NCBI GenBank assembly: GCA_009914755.4
Contig: CP068257.2
Location: 18,912,001-18,976,000, forward strand
DNA from: the human T2T-CHM13v2.0 reference genome, Homo sapiens
Length of the DNA: 64,000 bases
Reading direction: 5' to 3'
This document shows positions 15,783-45,683 of this stretch, one piece after another (the first letter of the stretch is position 1; the number at the start of each line of letters is the position of its first letter). A program made the position numbers and the translations under genes. The notes under the pieces are model-generated. The model was not told where the DNA came from and ran no database searches. It saw only the letters and a list, made by a program, of their open reading frames with translations.

Positions 15783-16311
15783 CGATATTTCACACTTCGG
15801 ATGTGCATGCATGTATGTGCATGCTCATGCATGTGTCTCCTCCCAATTACATTTGGTATTCTAATTTTATATTGCTGGATTAAATATATCATAGAGGTAT
15901 TAATTCAAGTTATTTAAATTTTAATATTTATGAAAAATGCTCCTTCTTACTATTTCAGACTTTATTTTACTTGTGCCATAGATTTATTCTTTAGAATAAA
16001 TCATTTATGATGTAATTATTTAAAATAAATCATTTATGATTTAATTATTTAAAATAAATCATAAATAAATAAATCATTCTTTAGAATAAATCTATAACAT
16101 TTATTTTATAACTTTCTCAGGGTTATAAGATCCCTTTTACCTGTCATGCAACATCAGCAAAGGGTTATTTTAATACTTTGAGCATATTATTATTTTGCTT
16201 CATGGAAATGCAATTAATAGTTTTTCTTGAATAATTTCCTTTAATAATGATCTCTACTTAGCAAAACAGGCTATGGTTAAGAGTATGTCCCTAAAAGTAA
16301 TTTTTAAGAGG

Positions 16312-33699: not shown

Positions 33700-34478
<779 letters not shown>

Positions 34479-35680: not shown

Positions 35681-35747
35681 GACAAGCTATTTACAAACTT
35701 ATTGAAGAAATGCAAAGCAACAAAGCCAAAATAAACTGTAGAACAAG
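35681..35747 (+). repeat. Left arm of ~80-bp inverted repeat (continues at 36031-36043 after an Alu insertion)
   Basis: gacaagctatttacaaacttattgaagaaatgcaaagcaacaaagccaaaataaactgtagaacaag is about 92% identical (5 mismatches in 67 bp) to the reverse complement of 39259-39325. Identity resumes after the Alu with agattttaaaaat, matching the reverse complement of 39247-39258. Confidence 0.8.
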
Positions 35748-36027
<280 letters not shown>

Positions 36028-36159
36028 AAAAGATTTTAAAAATGAAAAACTTGGAGGACATTAACGTCTGATTTCACAACTTATTATAATAGTACAATAA
36101 TTAAGAAAGTGGTATATTGGTGACAGAAAAGGTAAATATGCCAATGGAAGAAGTAGAGC

Positions 36160-36313
36160 CTATATATATATATACCCAGATATATATATATATATATATA
36201 CCCAGATATATATATATATATATACCCAGATATATATATATATACCCAGATATATATATATATATATACCCAGATATATATATATATACCCAGATATATA
36301 TATATATATACCC

Positions 36314-36360
<47 letters not shown>

Positions 36361-36559
36361 CAGATACATACATATACCCAGGAGGGGTGTGTGTGTGTAT
36401 ATATACCTGGGAGGGGGTGTGTATGTGTCTGTGTGTGTGTATATATTTATAAATTTATATGCAGAAGGGTGTATACACACACACACTTGGAATGGTGTAT
36501 GTATCCATATATACACATATATATGTGGGAGTGTGTGTATATATATAGACAAGAGGATG

Positions 36560-36619
<60 letters not shown>

Positions 36620-37130
36620 CCCAGGAGGGTGCATATATAGATATATACAGCGAGGGTGTGTGTATATATACACACACACACACACACACATATATCCAGG
36701 TGTATATAAATATATACATACAAGCGGGAGGGTGTGTGTATATATATATATATGCGGGAGGGTGTATATATATATACATACACACCCAAGAGGGTGTGTG
36801 TATATATATATACCTGGAAGGGTGCATATATATATGTGTATATATATATACCTGGCAGGGGGTATATATACATACCTAGGAGGGGTGTGTGTATATATTT
36901 TTATATACCCGGGAGTGGGTGTATATATATATACATACACACTCAGGAGTGTGTGCATATATATGTATCCGAGAGTAGGTATATATGTGTGTGTGTATAT
37001 ATATATGTGTGTGTGTGTACATATATACACACACACACACACATATACACACCTGGGAGTGGGTATTGGAGGGGGTATATATGTAGATATACACCCTGGA
37101 GTTGGTATATAAATATACACCCAGGAGTGG

Positions 37131-37192
<62 letters not shown>

Positions 37193-37234
37193 CTGAGAGT
37201 GTGTGTGTGTGTGTATATATATATATAAACACCC

Positions 37235-37282
<48 letters not shown>

Positions 37283-37434
37283 GTATATGTATACCTGGGA
37301 GTGGGTATGTATATGTATACCTGGAAGTGGGTATATATAGATATATATATCTATATATGCCTGGGAGTGGGTATATGTGAGTGTATATATATATATGGGG
37401 GCAGGTATAATATATATATAATGGGAGTGGGTTA

Positions 37435-37488
<54 letters not shown>

Positions 37489-37557
37489 TACCCAGGAGGG
37501 GTTATACATATATATACGTGGGGTTGGGATGTATATATACCCGGCAGTGGGTATGTG

Positions 37558-37599
<42 letters not shown>

Positions 37600-37812
37600 C
37601 CGGAGTGGGTATATATATATACACCCGGGAGTGGGTATATATATATACACCCGAGAGTGGGTATATATATATACAGCCGGGAGTGGGTATATATATACCC
37701 AGTAGTGGGTATATATATACCCAGTAGTGGGTATATATATACCTGGGGGAGGGAATATATATATATACCCAAGAGGGGTAGGGGTATATATATATATATA
37801 TGTGTGTGTGTG

Positions 37813-37858
<46 letters not shown>

Positions 37859-38357
37859 AGGGAGTGGGTATATATGCATATATACAACTGGGAGTGGGTA
37901 TATATACATATATATATGCAGACACATACCCAGGAGTGTATATATATATACCTGAGAGTGTGTGTGTATATATAAATATACACACATACACCCGAGAGTG
38001 GGTATGTATATGTATATACCCAGGAGTGGGTATGTATATATACACCCGGGTATGTATATGTATATACCCGGGAGTGGGTATGTATATATACCAGGGAGTG
38101 GGTATATATATACCTGGGTGGGGGTATATATATGTATATACCCATGTGGGGGTGTATATATATATATATAATATATATATATATATACACACACACCCAG
38201 GAGTGGGTATATATATATATACACCCGGGAGCAGTTATACACCACTCCCAGGCTTATATAGATTATACCCACTCTCGGATATGTATATATACACACACCC
38301 ACCCCTCCCGGATACATATATACACCCATCTGGGTATATATATATACCCACTCCCAG

Positions 38358-38396
<39 letters not shown>

Positions 38397-38606
38397 CACT
38401 CCCAGGTGTATATATGTGTATACCAACTGCCAGGTATATGTGTATATACCCCAACCCGCGTATATATATACGAACTCCCAGGTATATAAGTATATATTTA
38501 GCTGCTCCTGGGAGCAGCTAAATACACACACACCTGGGTTGGTAGGGTGTATATATATACACACACACACCCAGGAGGGGAGGATTATATATATATATAT
38601 GTGGTG

Positions 38607-38643
<37 letters not shown>

Positions 38644-38653
38644 GTGGTGTGTG

Positions 38654-38708
<55 letters not shown>

Positions 38709-38766
38709 ACCTGGGAGGGGGTAGTGTGTGTGTATATATATACACACTATATATATATACACACAG

Positions 38767-38797
<31 letters not shown>

Positions 38798-38902
38798 CTG
38801 GGAGGGGGTATATATATGAGCAGGTGTGTGTGTGTGTGTGTGTGTATGTATATATATATATATATACACACACACACCCAGGAGGGGTTATATGTGTGTG
38901 TT

Positions 38903-38949
<47 letters not shown>

Positions 38950-39085
38950 CCTGGAGGGGGTATATGTGTGTGCATGTGTGTTTGTGTGTGTGTGCGTGTG
39001 TGTGTGTATATACCCGGGAGGGGTATATGTGTGTGTATATATATACCCAGGAGTTGGTATATGTGTATGTATATATACCCTATAT
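36160..39085. repeat. 2.9-kb compound simple-repeat/minisatellite array of (TA)n and (CA)n/(TG)n blocks punctuated by a recurring ACC(C/T)GGGAG(T/G)GGGT-type core
   Basis: The first ~200 bp are about eight copies of (TA)n-ACCCAGA. After that, roughly 70 units of variable length follow the pattern (TA)n(CA)n-CCCGGGAGTGGGT-(TG)n(TA)n, with long pure (CA)n, (TG)n and (TA)n tracts, for example 36560-36602, 37131-37180 and 37237-37270. The very long Y/I/C/V-rich ORFs in the supplied track are translation artefacts of this array. Confidence 0.9.
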
Positions 39086-39123
39086 AAAAAAAATATTGAT
39101 ATTTTATATCGATATATAGATAT

Positions 39124-39180
39124 GTATCACTGCAATTGGCTACTTTTAGACTCCTGGTGATTGGTGCGTTTTACAGAATA
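39124..39180 (-). mobile_element. Short LTR12-like fragment (~57 bp), reverse orientation, at right edge of the array
   Basis: Reverse complement attctgtaaaacgcaccaatcaccaggagtctaaaagtagccaattgcagtga is about 90% identical to 33826-33878 of the LTR12 fragment in this window. Confidence 0.55.
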
Positions 39181-39246
39181 TAATATATAAATATATAGAT
39201 ATGGATTTATAAATATATCAATATAAAAAATATATGCCCTGTATGT

Positions 39247-39325
39247 ATTTTTAAAAATCTTGTTTTACAGTTTATTTCGGCTTTGTTGCTTTGCATTTCT
39301 TCAATAAATTTGGAAACAGCTTGTC
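39247..39325 (-). repeat. Right arm of ~80-bp inverted repeat flanking the array locus
   Basis: Reverse complement gacaagctgtttccaaatttattgaagaaatgcaaagcaacaaagccgaaataaactgtaaaacaagatttttaaaaat aligns to the left arm at 35681-35747 and 36031-36043. Confidence 0.8.
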
Positions 39326-39439
39326 TAGTAATAGATGTTATATACATATATATAACCAATTTGTTTTTTATAGAGCTATGAAAGCATTTAACATACAAAA
39401 GAGTGTATTTTCAATAAATTGTCTTGAAGCAAGTGACTA

Positions 39440-39730
39440 TCAATAATAAAAAATAAAACTTGAATGTTACCTCATACCACAGCCTTATTATAATTAATAA
39501 ATATAATCAATATAATATAATTATAATTATCATAATATATAGTTTTATAAGATGTAGTATTATAACTAATAATTTAGTATTCCAATTAATAATTAATTAT
39601 AATTATTATAATACTATAATATAATATAGTATTAGAAAACATGATGGTTGCATAGTATAATTAATTATATTAATATAATACTAAAATAGTAATTAATAAA
39701 AATAATTAATCAAATTAATTTGTGTATTAG
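39440..39730. repeat. AT-rich (~90% A+T) low-complexity tract full of short palindromes (aattaatt, ataatat, atatcgatat nearby)
   Basis: ataatcaatataatataattataattatcataatatat...ataattaattatattaatataatactaaaatagtaattaataaaaataattaatcaaattaatt. Confidence 0.85.
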
Positions 39731-42700
39731 AGTTGAAGAGATCATTTAACTTTGAAATCTAGAACTCTAAAAATTCCTGGAAAAAATATTTCTGACCTTT
39801 AGATGAGCCAATATGACAATTTTACAAAGAATACAAACACTTCTTAAAATGATCAATTGGACTTCATCTAAATCAAAAATATATTTGAAAAACAACACTG
39901 GAGAAGGAGAGTGAGAGACAGAGAAAGAAAGAGAGAGATTTTAAAAGAAAGTCACTCCTTAAAAGGGAGAGGAAATATTCACAATATACAAATATATGTA
40001 ATGATTGAGTTGAATGAAGAATCTAGAATATAATGAATAATTAACTATGAGGCAAAAAAAAAATGGCTAAAGTCTTGAACAGACATTTCACAAAAAATGT
40101 TATGTAAATTACACTTCATTAGCTATCAGGAAAGTGCAAATTAAAACCATAATATAAAGTACTTTTTTTTTACCTTTTCTATGTTTATATATGTTTAGAT
40201 ACACAAATGCTTACCATTGTGTTACAGATGTCCATAGTATTTCATACAAGTAACATGCTATACAGGTTTGTAACCTAGGAGCAATAGCATAGGCCTTAAA
40301 GCTAAGGTGAGTAGGAAGCTGTATCATCGAGGTTTTTGTAAGTATACCCTATGATGTTCACATGAAAACAAAATCACCTAATGACACATTTCTCAGAACA
40401 TATTCCCATCATTAAGTGACACATTACTGTATCATTGTTGCAATGTCTAATTTTTACTTCAATTCTTTCAGTTTCTATTTTATGTCTTTTGTAGATTTGT
40501 TGTTAAGTACATATATGTTAATGATTGTTACATCTTTCCGATGGATTGACCCTTTATAATTAGGAAATGTCCCTCTAGTAATATTTTTTTCTTTAAAGAC
40601 TATGTTGTCTGACAGCTTTTCTGGCTCTTTTTATGATGTTTGCAGAGTATTTCCTTTTTAATACTTTTACTTTCAACCTATTTGTGTTATTTGAATTTCA
40701 AATACATCTTCTTTAGAAAGCCTATAGTTGAATCTTACTTAATTCAGCCTGACAGTCTTCACTTTCGATTGGATTATTTAATCCATTCATACGCTGTAAT
40801 TGATAGGATTTCATTTATATTTTACATTTAGCTTTTTGTTTTTTATATATCTTCTATTTTTTAGTTTCTCCATTTGTTCTTTCTTGCATCCTTTTGCATT
40901 AAATATTTTCCAACATTTTAATTCAATTAATATTTTAGTTTTTGAGGTTTTTCTTAGCGGATACACTAGGGATTATGGTATAAATCTTAACTGATCATAC
41001 TCTAGCTTTATAATGACTTAGTTACAATAAGATGTTAAAATATTCCACCTATACTGTTCATTTCCTTCTCCACTTTTTTATGCAGTTACTGGTATATATA
41101 CTGTTTATATTTGATATAGACCTAACAGTACATGGTTATACATATTACTTTGTATTACCTTATGTATTTTAAAGAGGCTAACGAAAGAAGAAAAACAAAG
41201 ACATATTTATAGATTTTGTTATAGCAACCCTTTTATTTACTGTTTCTTGCTCTCTTCATTTCTTGTGGATTTGAGCTACTAACTAGTGTCATTTGTTTGT
41301 GCCAATACAGCTTTTTTTTCACTCAACTGTTTTATGCTGTTATTGGCAAATGTATTACATTTCTAAAAGTTATAGGTTCAGCAGTGAAGTACATACATAT
41401 ACTTTTGAGACAATTGCTTTTTAAATCAGTAAAGAGAAGAAAAGAGGAAACAAAATGCAATTATACAGTCTTTTGCAACTACCAACATAATTAGCTTTAC
41501 CTGCACTCATTGTTTTTTATTCTAATCTAATGTCTCGCTTTTATTTTAAAGAACTTCCTTTAGAATTTCTTGTAAGGTATGTCTTTAAGCAATGATTGTG
41601 AAGCTAAAATTGTCTTTATTTTTCATCATTTTTGGAACTTAGTTATAATTAGCAAAACATGAATATAAGACTCTTGATTTGCAATTCTTTTGTTTTGTTT
41701 TGTTTTGTTTTCCTACTTTCATCTCTTTGAATCTGTTGTACCATTCTGAAATTCATTGTTGAGATAAGAAGTCAGCCAACAGTCTTACTGGGATGCAAAC
41801 ATGCATACTGAGTCATTTCTCCATTGATGTTTTAAAGATTTTCTCTCTGTCTTTGACTTTTAACATTTGATTATGACGTATCTGAATGTAGATCTCTTTG
41901 TGGTTATCCTCTTTGGAGTTTGTCATACCTCTTGAGTGAGCAGATTAAATTTTTATCAGATCTGGAAGTCTTTCAGCCCTTATTCCTCTATGTTGTTTCT
42001 TCTTCTTTCTCTCCCTTCTCATACATATTTTCCGGGATAAATGTGTATCACATCCTTTCAGGCACTATTTTTCTTGAATTGTTCTTTGATTGGTGTTTCA
42101 GATTACATAATCTCTATTGATCTATCTTCAAGTTTGATCATTCTTTTATTCTCCCAATTCAAAACTATTTTTAAATTCCTCTGGTGAATGTCTAATTTGG
42201 GTTGTTGCATTTTTCCAACTGCAGAATTTCCATTTCATTATTTATAATAATTTCTATGATTTTATCAATACTCTGTATTTAATAAGATACTTTCATTTTA
42301 TCTTCTTGCATTTTTTTTTGCATAGTTTACTTTTTGAACATATTTACGGTAGCTACATTGGGTTTGTGATGGCTGATTTTATGGTGAACTTTACTGAGAC
42401 AGGAAGTGCCAAAAATCGTTATTTCTAGGAGTGTCTTTGAGAGTTTTCTGGATGAAATTAGTATCTGAACCAGTGCATTCAGTAAATTAGATGCATCTCC
42501 TCCAAATGTGCATGGGTATTGTTTAATCTTGTGAGGGCCTGCATAAAATAAAAAGGTGGAGGAATGAGAAATTTGCCCTTTTTTTCTTCCTGCTTGCCTC
42601 CATAAACTAGGACCTCAGTCTTCTCCTGCCCTCTTTTGGGATTTATATCATCAGCTTCTCTGGTTCTCAGTCCTGTTGAAACAGCCTCGTTGTCTGAGTG

Positions 42701-44825: not shown

Positions 44826-45256
44826 TTTTTTTTATTACACTTTAAGTTTTAGGGTACATGTGCACAACGTGCAGGTTTGTTACATATGTATACATGTGCC
44901 ATGTTGGTGTGCTGCACCTATTAACTCGTTATTTAACATTAGATATATCTCCTAATGCTATCCCTCTCCCCTCCCTCCACCCCACAACAGGCCCCGGTGT
45001 GTGATGTTCCCCTTCCTTTGTCCACGTGTTCTCATTGTTCAATTCCCACCTATGAGTGAGAACATGCAGTGTTTGGTTTTTTGTCCTTGCAATGGTTTGC
45101 TGAGAATGATGGTTTCCAGCTTCATCCATGTCCCTACAAAGGACATGAACTCATCATTTTTTATGGCTGCATAGTATTCCATGGTGTATATGTGCCACAT
45201 TTTCTTAATCCAGTCTATCATTGTTGGACATTTGGCTTGGTTCCAAGTCTTTGCTA
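44826..45256 (-). mobile_element. Young L1PA-type 3'-end fragment (~430 bp, 5'-truncated), reverse orientation, with TSD
   Basis: tttattacactttaagttttagggtacatgtgcacaacgtgcaggtttgttacatatgtatacatgtgccatgttggtgtgctgcacc...cccacctatgagtgagaacatgcagtgtttggtttt...ttggttccaagtctttgctatt, a near-perfect match to the L1PA/L1HS 3' end as I recall it. tttcattttttt is present at 44815-44826 and 45257-45268. Confidence 0.88.
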
Positions 45257-45683
45257 TTTCATTTTTTTAACATCATCCTTTGGCATGAGGTTTTCCATTT
45301 TCCATTTCCACACAAATGAAGTGTAGAGGAAACAAAATTTCACCTCGATGCTCTTAGCGTTCCAAATGGGTCGAATAATTACACTGATCTAAGATATAGA
45401 TTAATAGAGAAAAAGTCTAATACAAATTTTATGTAGCATTGGAGCCCTCATAAAGAAATGAAGACCCCAAAAAAACAAAGTCAGTTACTTATTTACTGAA
45501 TTGGACAAATAGTCAACTTGAGAATGTGATAAGGCAAAGGGCCTTGGGTTAACACAGTTAACTGGGTAGAGAAGTAGCTAAAAAGATAAGGGTTGGTGTA
45601 CTAACCCTTTAGAAGTAGCTAAAAAGATAAGGGTTGGCTTGAGTCTCAACTTTCTCGTCCTTGATTAGAATGTTTTTCTCTAG

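What the first reader, a model, noticed from the sequence alone, without database searches (positions are those of the whole stretch)
36160..39085. 2.9-kb compound (TA)n/(CA)n minisatellite built on a recurring ACCCGGGAGTGGGT core
This is the most unusual structure in the window. It is a single uninterrupted array of about 2.9 kb made from three alternating pure dinucleotide tracts, (TA)n, (CA)n and (TG)n, separated at irregular 20-45-bp intervals by a conserved G-rich punctuation motif (ACC[C/T]GGGAG[T/G]GGGT and variants such as CCCAGGAGGGGTG or CCTGGGAGGGGGT). Three properties of such sequence are well established:
- alternating purine-pyrimidine (CA/TG) tracts favour Z-DNA;
- long (TA)n tracts extrude cruciforms and are flexibility/fragility hot spots;
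- arrays of this kind are usually hypervariable VNTRs and are often mis-assembled.
The first ~200 bp form a distinct sub-array, (TA)n-ACCCAGA about eight times, which suggests stepwise evolution of the unit. The array produces spurious ORFs of 300-440 codons rich in Tyr/Ile/Cys/Val/His.
Basis: partly seen in the sequence, partly recalled or inferred. Interest (0 to 1): 0.6.

Follow-up and report, generated by a model that had tools for sequence, protein, structure and literature searches.

The report
Complex TA/CA minisatellite inside old L1
A real but ordinary 2.9-kb non-coding tandem-repeat array, sitting inside an ancient L1 retrotransposon fragment of a primate genome, whose sequence shows it grew by slippage and unit duplication and was once partly inverted; nothing points to a gene or a dedicated function.

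Summary
The array at 36161-39085 is real, and its boundaries are right to within a few bases. A 12-nt core, CC[C/T][G/A]GGAG[T/G]GGG, occurs 42 times in the window at up to 1 mismatch, against 0.61 expected; 37 of those are in the array. (TA)n, (CA)n and (TG)n tracts cover 59% of it. The eight-copy (TA)n-ACCCAGA sub-array and the 344-438-codon low-complexity ORFs are also there.

- A 274-bp block (38236-38509) carries the core in reverse orientation and is an inverted copy of 37508-37713.
- The array has zones: GGAG-G-GGG cores at both ends, GGAG-T-GGG cores in the middle (P=5e-5).
- The C/T and G/A ambiguity in the core has the spectrum of CpG decay.
- (CA)n never directly follows a core and (TG)n never directly precedes one.
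- The array sits inside an old L1 ORF2, followed by a 250-bp patch holding two short inverted copies of sequence from 3-5 kb upstream.

Core spacing is 22-214 bp, not 20-45.

Best reading: a locus-specific complex minisatellite shaped by slippage, unit duplication, CpG decay and template switching. It meets sequence criteria for hairpin, cruciform and Z-DNA formation. Polymorphism and fragility could not be tested. Interest is low.

The parts
36161..36376 (+). Zone A: sub-array of eight ACCCAGA motifs, each followed by (TA)6-21. It contains a 44-bp two-unit exact duplication.
36377..36907 (+). Zone B: degenerate units with G-type cores (CCYRGGAG-G-GGG / GGAGGGTG) and long dinucleotide tracts, including (CA)20.5 at 36563-36603.
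36908..38235 (+). Zone C: mostly T-type cores (CCYRGGAG-T-GGG). It includes the most regular blocks: 37584-37763 (period 22/26, 87-89% matches) and 38000-38091 (48-bp double unit, 97% matches).
37136..37181 (.). Longest uninterrupted (TA)n tract, 23 units.
   Evidence: DNA hairpin of 37131-37192: -19.9 kcal/mol, z = -3.9
37433..37490 (.). 58-bp perfect palindrome made of a (TG) run, a (TA) run and a (CA) run in that order.
37508..37713 (+). Source segment of the internal inverted duplication. It carries the rare unit variants CGTGGGGTTGGG and CCCGGCAGTGGG and a (TA)17 tract.
38236..38509 (-). Zone D: block with the core in reverse orientation (ACCCACTCCCAGGT). It is an inverted copy of 37508-37713: 74% identity with gaps, with the same rare variants in the same order.
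   Evidence: The long-range stem appears in the single-strand fold
38497..38523 (.). Right junction of the inverted block: perfect 13-bp arms ATTTAGCTGCTCC / GGAGCAGCTAAAT separated by 2 nt. A third GGGAGCAG copy lies at the left junction (38229).
   Evidence: Hairpin z = -6.5
38510..39085 (+). Zone E: G-type cores (CCTGGGAGGGGG) 33-140 bp apart, separated mostly by long compound (TG)n(TA)n(CA)n spacers.
36026..36160 (+). Left flank: fragment of an old L1 ORF2. The translation [26 protein letters not shown] matches human ORF2p residues 872-900.
   Evidence: E = 0.001 against PDB ORF2p chains
35748..36025 (-). Old Alu inserted into the same L1, 135 bp left of the array.
   Evidence: Reading (poly-T tail, GGCC...GGTGCGGTGAC 5' end)
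39086..39335 (.). Non-array patch between the array and the point where the L1 resumes. It is AT-rich filler plus two short inverted copies of upstream sequence.
39127..39179 (+). 53-bp inverted copy (91% identity) of the LTR12-like sequence at 33821-33873.
39253..39325 (-). 73-bp inverted copy (92% identity) of the host L1's own sequence at 35681-35753.
39336..39494 (+). Host L1 ORF2 appears to resume here (HIYNQFVF... against HIYNYLIF...). The match is weak but collinear with further hits at 39780-39854 and 40057-40148.
   Evidence: A PDB search of this stretch found nothing

Best explanation
This is a locus-specific, non-coding complex minisatellite with embedded microsatellites. It is nested in an ancient, heavily mutated L1 ORF2 fragment of a primate genome. 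It has no detectable coding or RNA function. What can be read from it is how it formed and how the DNA is likely to behave.

**Shown**
- The unit is a roughly 12-nt G-rich core plus a TA-rich spacer. The most regular blocks have periods of 22-28 bp.
- Core subtypes are zoned: G-type at both ends, T-type in the centre.
- One multi-unit segment was duplicated in inverted orientation.
- The right flank carries two short inverted copies of sequence from 3.3 and 5.3 kb upstream.

**Inferred**
1. The array grew by whole-unit duplication (replication slippage or unequal exchange). The T-type subfamily expanded inside an older G-type array.
2. (CA)n and (TG)n tracts arose by dinucleotide slippage seeded at the two core boundaries, ...TA-CA-CCC and GGG-TG-TA... 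This explains why CA never directly follows a core and TG never directly precedes one.
3. The ancestral core held a methylated CpG (CCCGGGAG) that decayed independently in each unit to TG or CA.
4. The inverted block and the inverted flank patches are scars of fold-back or template-switching repair at stalled or broken forks, as expected for hairpin-prone AT-rich DNA.
5. Zone A may derive in situ from the L1's own CCCAGAAATAA sequence at the junction.

**Predicted, not tested**
- Length polymorphism, hairpin or cruciform and Z-DNA formation, and replication difficulty.
For: - Real tandem structure and core enrichment.
- Zonation of core position 9: 12 runs against 25.4 expected, P = 5e-5.
- Core positions 3-4 are TG 20, CA 17, CG 10 and other 6, scattered at random along the array (runs P = 0.31). 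This fits independent CpG decay after amplification.
- Polarity: none of 21 (CA)n tracts begins directly at a core 3' end, and none of 27 (TG)n tracts runs directly into a core 5' end (my reading of the flanking contexts listed).
- The inverted block is collinear with 37508-37713 through rare unit variants. Its right junction is a perfect 13-bp-arm palindrome.
- Flank patches are 91-92% identical to upstream sequence in inverted orientation. That is far closer than independent copies of so degraded an L1 should be.
- L1 identity of the left flank (E = 0.001). Weak collinear continuation on the right and further left.
- No Rfam family in the window.
- Array ORFs have only low-complexity matches in a 5.8-billion-protein collection.
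- A recent duplication survives at 97% identity (48-bp unit at 38000-38091).
- The general background that transposable elements often seed tandem repeats is in PMC3389668.
Against: - No second haplotype, individual or species could be examined, so polymorphism, age and the order of events are inferred from one sequence.
- The origin of the main core is unresolved. Its resemblance to the antisense L1 'PLLGIYP' codons (string confirmed in PMC6447604) is reached by 3 of 1000 shuffles of that 126-bp piece. That is roughly 0.15 after allowing for having picked the piece out of a 6-kb element, so it is not significant.
- The L1 nucleotide consensus at the insertion point comes from my memory only; no paper holding it was found.
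- Continuation of the L1 to the right of the array is weak.
- Spacers are not centred palindromes above a block-shuffle control: 0.46 against 0.49. The 'palindromic' character is therefore local, not general.
- The LTR12-like patch could come from another copy of that family rather than from the local one.
Confidence: 0.8

Rival explanations
1. Assembly artefact: the array, or its inverted block and patchwork flank, is a mis-join or a collapse/expansion produced when a low-complexity region was assembled.
For: Sequence of this kind is hard to assemble (general knowledge). The inverted block with a fold-back junction is also the form that chimeric reads or assembler errors can take. Nothing independent could be retrieved to check it.
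Against: - Units are heterogeneous and zoned.
- The longest exact non-dinucleotide direct repeat is only about 44-50 bp.
- The inverted block is only 74% identical to its source, and the flank patches only 91-92%. An artefact would give near-identical copies; these have diverged in the genome.
Confidence: 0.07
2. A functional DNA element: a chromatin or replication feature (matrix attachment or DNA-unwinding region, insulator) or a recombination hot spot that acts through the G-rich core.
For: There is a high density of one conserved core. Base-unpairing and hairpin potential is strong and purine-pyrimidine alternation is extensive.
Against: - The core decays as neutral CpG-containing DNA does.
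- The PRDM9 13-mer CCNCCNTNNCCNC is absent from the array; all 5 window hits lie outside it.
- The classical minisatellite core GGGCAGGANG is absent.
- There is no canonical G-quadruplex motif with loops up to 12 nt.
- No Rfam match.
- The host is a dead L1.
Confidence: 0.08
3. A member of a dispersed repeat family: the internal tandem-repeat region of a transposable element or a multi-locus satellite, not a locus-specific array.
For: The core resembles short pieces of L1 (antisense CCCATTACTGGGTATATACCCA) and of Alu (CCCGGGAGGCGG, the off-array hits). An LTR12-like piece lies next to the array, and LTR12 elements carry internal tandem repeats (PMC3389668).
Against: - No other copy of the unit exists in the remaining 61 kb of the window.
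- None was found in the metagenome, prokaryotic-genome or viral collections. These collections are poor in primate DNA, so this is weak evidence.
- No paper holds the unit strings.
- The L1 resemblance is not significant after correction.
- No transposon ends flank the array; the L1 appears to continue on both sides.
Confidence: 0.05

Closest known systems
Complex or compound minisatellites (VNTRs) with embedded microsatellites, including tandem repeats nested in transposable elements (survey: PMC3389668)
   Same: Head-to-tail units of 20-60 bp with variant subtypes arranged in zones, embedded (TA)n, (CA)n and (TG)n tracts, a location inside a retrotransposon fragment, and no coding capacity.
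   Different: The unit sequence was not found in any paper or collection searched. The array contains an internal inverted duplication and short inverted copies of nearby sequence in its flank. Population variability, the feature that gives VNTRs their name, could not be tested.
Flex1-type (AT)n repeat of common fragile site FRA16D (PMC12972899)
   Same: Uninterrupted (TA)n tracts. The longest here has 23 units, just above the roughly 22 units reported to form cruciforms in vivo and equal to the shortest tract, (AT)23, reported to raise fragility in yeast.
   Different: Here the TA tracts are many, mostly short (94 tracts, only 5 longer than 30 bp) and broken up by G-rich cores. Chromosomal position relative to any fragile site is unknown.
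AT-rich minisatellites of rare fragile sites FRA16B and FRA10B (PMC2875025)
   Same: A kilobase-scale AT-rich minisatellite predicted to fold into multiple hairpins.
   Different: The 33-bp FRA16B unit is absent even with 3 mismatches allowed. Those units lack a G-rich core, and fragile alleles reach up to 2000 copies.
Palindromic AT-rich repeats (PATRRs) of 11q23, 22q11 and 17q11 (from my own knowledge)
   Same: AT-rich DNA containing inverted repeats that can form hairpins or cruciforms.
   Different: PATRRs are near-perfect palindromes several hundred bp long with no spacer. Here the large inverted pair is 74% identical and its arms are about 520 bp apart. The perfect palindromes are only 58 bp and 13+13 bp.
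GC-rich hypervariable minisatellites with the shared core GGGCAGGANG (from my own knowledge)
   Same: A short G-rich core repeated in tandem, with strand asymmetry.
   Different: That core is absent, and this array is 65% A+T.

Membership tests
Minisatellite / VNTR | Tandem head-to-tail units of about 10-100 bp sharing a consensus | tested here: met
   TRF periods 22-60 with core-bearing consensus units. 53 cores at 18 per kb.
Minisatellite / VNTR | Copy number varies among individuals | not testable with these tools
   No second copy of the locus could be retrieved.
Tandem repeat derived from a transposable element (L1) | Array lies within a transposable-element copy | tested here: met
   The left flank matches ORF2p residues 872-900, E = 0.001. 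There are weaker collinear matches on the right and further left.
Tandem repeat derived from a transposable element (L1) | Repeat unit alignable to the element's own sequence | tested here: inconclusive
   The best match to a published 126-bp L1 piece scores 31, and 3 of 1000 shuffles reach that. It is not significant once the choice of piece is allowed for. The link between zone A and the L1's CCCAGAAATAA rests on a consensus recalled from memory (one search found no source).
Cruciform-forming (AT)n repeat, Flex1 type | Uninterrupted AT/TA tract above about 22 units | tested here: met
   (TA)23 at 37136-37181, 100% matches. Threshold taken from PMC12972899. The margin is one unit.
Cruciform-forming (AT)n repeat, Flex1 type | Replication stalling or breakage at the tract; location in a fragile site | not testable with these tools
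   Needs experiments and the chromosomal position.
FRA16B-type AT-rich minisatellite | 33-bp unit ATATATTATATATTATATCTAATAATATATC/ATA | tested here: not met
   No match in the window with up to 3 mismatches.
PATRR | Near-perfect palindrome of several hundred bp without a spacer | tested here: not met
   The inverted pair 37508-37713 / 38236-38469 is 74% identical and about 520 bp apart. The longest perfect palindrome is 58 bp.
Z-DNA-prone alternating purine-pyrimidine sequence | Long strictly alternating Pu/Py tracts containing CA/TG | tested here: met
   80 tracts of at least 12 nt total 1960 bp (67% of the array), the longest 74 nt. This is a sequence criterion only. Much of the alternation is TA, which favours cruciforms over Z-DNA.
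G-quadruplex-forming repeat | Four G3+ runs with loops of 12 nt or less | tested here: not met
   No motif with loops up to 7 or up to 12 nt. 10 motifs on + and 4 on - appear only when loops up to 25 nt are allowed.
PRDM9-motif recombination hot spot | 13-mer CCNCCNTNNCCNC | tested here: not met
   All five window hits lie outside the array.
Protein-coding gene | ORF product with homologues or domains | tested here: not met
   The 428-aa ORF finds only four weak YIYI/THTH low-complexity matches, none containing the translated core. ORFs overlap in several frames on both strands.

The most novel reading that the evidence does not exclude
The array may be a self-propagating hairpin-prone minisatellite. 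Its unit, TATATACCCA-GGAG-TGGGTATATA, is close to its own reverse complement. If so, it grows and rearranges mainly by fold-back or template-switching replication rather than by simple slippage. The internal inverted duplication, the perfect 13-bp-arm junction and the two short inverted copies of sequence from 3-5 kb away would then be a preserved record of repeated fork collapse at a natural, so far unrecognised, fragile or highly polymorphic site.
Probability: 0.15. Interest if true: 0.45.

Novelty: new member of a known kind. Interest (0 to 1): 0.2.

Why it matters
It matters little in itself, because arrays like this are common in primate genomes. It is useful in three ways:
- It is a warning that the long ORFs here are artefacts.
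- It marks a region likely to be hard to sequence and possibly polymorphic.
- It is a compact worked example in one sequence of how a complex repeat records its own history: subtype zonation, CpG decay, polarity of CA and TG tracts, an internal inversion, and inverted copies of nearby sequence in its flank.

If long-read haplotypes showed frequent structural change here, the locus could serve as a natural model for instability driven by (TA)n tracts.

Tried and rejected
1. **Other copies of the locus or unit.** No matches to the exact left flank or to a degenerate unit pattern in the metagenome, prokaryotic-genome or viral contig collections. These collections hold little primate DNA, so the negatives are weak.
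2. **Exact-protein look-ups** of a flank ORF and of the 438-aa array ORF found nothing.
3. **Protein homology search** with the 428-aa array ORF returned only generic low-complexity hits.
4. **Literature string searches** for six unit variants and for six L1 junction strings found nothing.
5. **Core derived from the antisense L1 'PLLGIYP' codons.** The human L1 string is confirmed, but the match is not significant after correction, and the window's own L1 copies differ at the key bases. Kept only as a lead.
6. **Core derived from Alu CCCGGGAGGCGGAGG.** Only 9-11 nt are shared and no further Alu sequence follows. Rejected.
7. **Spacers as centred palindromes.** Not above a block-shuffle control.
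8. **Palindromic symmetry around 38510** beyond the 13-bp arms shows only the generic ~70% similarity between units.
9. **The L1-derived patch was copied before the Alu inserted.** Removing the Alu extends the alignment by only about 6-7 bases, score 128 against 116. Suggestive, not decisive.
10. **PDB searches.** The right-flank and far-left L1 translations found nothing.
11. **Motif and family searches.** Rfam, the PRDM9 motif, the classical minisatellite core, the FRA16B unit and canonical G-quadruplex motifs are all absent from the array.
Full report

Yes. Reading 35900-39400 shows low-complexity sequence starting at 36161, directly after ...GTAGAGCC, and ending at about 39085.

Tandem Repeats Finder (TRF) does not call one 2.9-kb array. 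It calls about 20 overlapping local arrays with periods 22-60. Their consensus units contain the proposed core, for example TATATATATATACACCCGGGAGTGGG at 37584-37741 (6.4 copies, 89% matches). This is the only large tandem array in the 64-kb window.

Counts for the core and the tracts:
- The degenerate core CCYRGGAGKGGG with up to 1 mismatch occurs 42 times in the window, against 0.61 expected from shuffles. 37 hits are in the array. The other five lie outside it, and the ones I read look Alu-like (CCCGGGAGGCGG type).
- With up to 2 mismatches there are 53 cores in the array, 18 per kb against 0.38 per kb elsewhere.
- Tracts of at least 3 units of TA, CA and TG cover 39%, 10% and 10.5% of the 2926 bp.
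- The eight ACCCAGA motifs of the first sub-array are at 36174-36358.
- ORFs of 438, 428 and 344 codons exist and are about 40% Tyr plus Ile.

Two details are wrong. Core spacing is 22-214 bp with a median of 40, not 20-45. The array is neither uniform nor in a single orientation.

**2.

(a) *Orientation.* 45 cores are on the plus strand and 8 on the minus strand. All the minus-strand cores lie in one block, 38236-38509, where units read ACCCACTCCCAGGT.
- The reverse complement of this block aligns best with 37508-37713, at 74% identity including gaps.
- The alignment runs through rare unit variants that occur once in each place and in the same order: CGTGGGGTTGGG, CCCGGCAGTGGG and a (TA)17 tract. 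So the block is an inverted duplicate of a multi-unit segment about 520 bp upstream, not generic unit similarity.
- Its right junction is a perfect palindrome with 13-bp arms, ATTTAGCTGCTCC-TG-GGAGCAGCTAAAT (38497-38523). A third GGGAGCAG copy marks the left junction.
- As single-stranded DNA this junction folds at -12.4 kcal/mol, z = -6.5.
- The whole 37500-38480 stretch folds at -268.7 kcal/mol against -167.7 for shuffles, z = -16.5. The outermost stem is formed by the two copies.

(b) *Zonation.* Core position 9 is G in the first seven cores (36377-36886) and in six of the last seven (38570-39024). It is mostly T in between. That gives 12 runs against 25.4 expected, P = 5e-5. The array can be divided into five zones:
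- A: 36161-36376
- B: 36377-36907
- C: 36908-38235
- D: 38236-38509 (inverted)
- E: 38510-39085

The simplest reading is that a T-type subfamily with short TA spacers expanded inside an older G-type array with long compound spacers. A 48-bp double unit still 97% identical (38000-38091) and a 44-bp exact two-unit repeat in zone A show comparatively recent duplication.

(c) *The C/T and G/A ambiguity.* Core positions 3-4 are TG in 20 cores, CA in 17, CG in 10 and something else in 6. This is the spectrum expected when a methylated CpG decays on either strand, which is established knowledge about CpG hypermutability. The states are not clustered along the array (runs P = 0.31), which fits independent decay after amplification. 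I infer that the ancestral core was CCCGGGAG[T/G]GGG.

(d) *Polarity of the dinucleotide tracts.*
- (TG)n tracts mostly begin at or near a core 3' end and run into TA.
- (CA)n tracts mostly begin in TA and run into a core 5' end.
- From the flanking contexts listed, none of 21 CA tracts starts directly at a core 3' end, and none of 27 TG tracts runs directly into a core 5' end.
- I infer that the boundaries ...TATA-C-ACCC and GGGT-G-TATA seeded AC and GT slippage respectively.
- This order creates local palindromes, such as a perfect 58-bp one at 37433-37490.
- Spacers as a class are not centred palindromes above a block-shuffle control, 0.46 against 0.49. The palindromic character should not be overstated.

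**3. Surroundings**

The window is primate DNA:
- There are Alu elements, including one that looks close to the Alu consensus, starting at 33921.
- An L1 3' end at 45042-45257 (minus strand) matches human ORF2p residues 1204-1275 at E = 7e-40.
- Rfam finds nothing in the window.

The array lies inside a much older L1:
- Immediately to the left, 36067-36153 translates to [26 protein letters not shown]. This hits solved LINE-1 ORF2p structures at residues 872-900 (E = 0.001).
- An old Alu (35748-36025, minus strand) interrupts the same L1.
To the right of the array they lie at 39345-39494, 39780-39854 and 40057-40148.
- A PDB search of the right-hand stretch found nothing, so continuation of the L1 is probable but not proven.

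If the L1 does continue, the array plus a 250-bp patch occupies a gap of only a few L1 nucleotides. The left flank ends ...GAGCC. From my memory of L1 consensus sequences, the next bases would be CAGAAATAA... The first array units read CCCAGATATATA, and the sequence just before the apparent resumption reads TAGTAATAGATG. This suggests that zone A arose in place from the L1's own CCCAGAAATAA. The point rests on a recalled consensus; I found no published copy of it.

**4. The right-flank patch**

Between the array and the apparent L1 resumption, two segments are inverted copies of upstream sequence:
- 39253-39325 matches 35753-35681 at 92% over 73 bp.
- 39127-39179 matches 33873-33821 at 91% over 53 bp.

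The first source lies in what appears to be the host L1 (collinear match nearby). That element is so degraded, about 45% amino-acid identity to ORF2p, that an unrelated L1 copy should not be 92% identical to it. The patch was therefore copied locally and relatively late. The second source lies in a sequence I recognise as LTR12-like (from my own knowledge). There, another family member cannot be excluded as the source.

The two pieces are each inverted, but their order is not that of one inverted segment. Two short, separately copied pieces from nearby are what template-switching repair is known to produce. That attribution is inference.

Removing the Alu from the source extends the first alignment by only 6-7 bases. 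This hints that the copy predates the Alu insertion but does not prove it.

**5. How it most likely works**

Nothing indicates a gene or a structured RNA:
- The ORFs overlap on both strands.
- They have no homologues beyond YIYI/THTH low-complexity hits.
- No Rfam family matches.

The best-supported account is a neutral, self-perpetuating repeat with four processes acting on it: unit duplication, dinucleotide slippage at core boundaries, CpG decay, and at least one fold-back or template-switch event inside it with probably another at its edge.

Its physical properties are predictions from sequence:
- 67% is strict purine-pyrimidine alternation in tracts of at least 12 nt.
- One pure (TA)23 tract is just above the roughly 22 units reported to form cruciforms in vivo, and equal to the shortest tract that raised fragility in yeast (PMC12972899).
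- There are many hairpin-capable stretches.
- There is no canonical G-quadruplex motif with loops up to 12 nt.

**6. Comparison with known kinds**

It is a complex minisatellite nested in a transposable element. Thousands of tandem repeats derived from such elements have been catalogued in the human genome (PMC3389668).

It is not any of the following:
- The FRA16B repeat: the unit is absent (unit sequence from PMC2875025).
- A PATRR: there is no long near-perfect palindrome.
- A classical GC-rich minisatellite: that core is absent.
- A carrier of the PRDM9 13-mer.

It shares with the Flex1 repeat only the marginal length of its longest TA tract.

The core's origin is unresolved. It resembles the antisense strand of the L1 'PLLGIYP' codons (CCCATTACTGGGTATATACCCA, confirmed as human L1 sequence in PMC6447604). 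Two units (37698-37731) differ from it by one base in 18. However, 3 of 1000 shuffles of that 126-bp piece score as well. After allowing for having chosen the piece from a 6-kb element, the match is not significant, and the window's own L1 copies differ at key bases.

**7. Limits**

No other haplotype, individual, species or paralogous locus could be retrieved. The collections available hold mostly microbial DNA. Hypervariability, fragility, age and the possibility of mis-assembly therefore remain untested. The divergence of the duplicated pieces (74% and 91-92% identity) does argue against an assembly artefact.

**8. Verdict**

This is an ordinary, locus-specific complex minisatellite with an unusually legible history. 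Novelty: a new member of a known kind. Interest: about 0.2.

Noticed in passing
window 33700-33920 and 33921-34100: An LTR12-like sequence with repeated CCAAT-box motifs (caccaatca...) lies on the minus strand. It abuts an Alu that looks close to the Alu consensus, starting at 33921. Part of the LTR12-like sequence (33821-33873) is the source, or a relative, of the inverted patch at 39127-39179.
   Followed up: partly
window 45042-45257 (minus strand): The 3' end of a young L1. Its translation matches human ORF2p residues 1204-1275 at E = 7e-40, which places the window in a primate genome.
   Followed up: yes
None covers the ORF2 position where the array sits.
   Followed up: partly
window 39480-39720: A second AT-rich low-complexity stretch of several short TRF arrays (units such as ATAAT and TAATTAATAAAAA). 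It lies inside the presumed host L1, about 400 bp right of the main array, and has no G-rich core.
   Followed up: no
window 39900-39940: A short purine-rich (GA)n-like tract: ggagaaggagagtgagagacagagaaagaaagagagagat.
   Followed up: no
window 40150-40400: The host L1 match stops at about 40148, after a T run. An unrelated sequence follows (tatgtttagatacacaaatgcttaccattgtgttacag...). It looks like another interspersed repeat but was not identified.
   Followed up: no
window 15986-16062: A 29-bp AT-rich tandem repeat, 2.7 copies at 93% identity. It is the only other TRF hit scoring at least 90 in the window.
   Followed up: no
window 39088-39104 and 39216-39234: A 10-bp inverted repeat (ATATTGATAT / ATATCAATAT) brackets the first inverted patch. 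It is AT-rich and may be chance.
   Followed up: no
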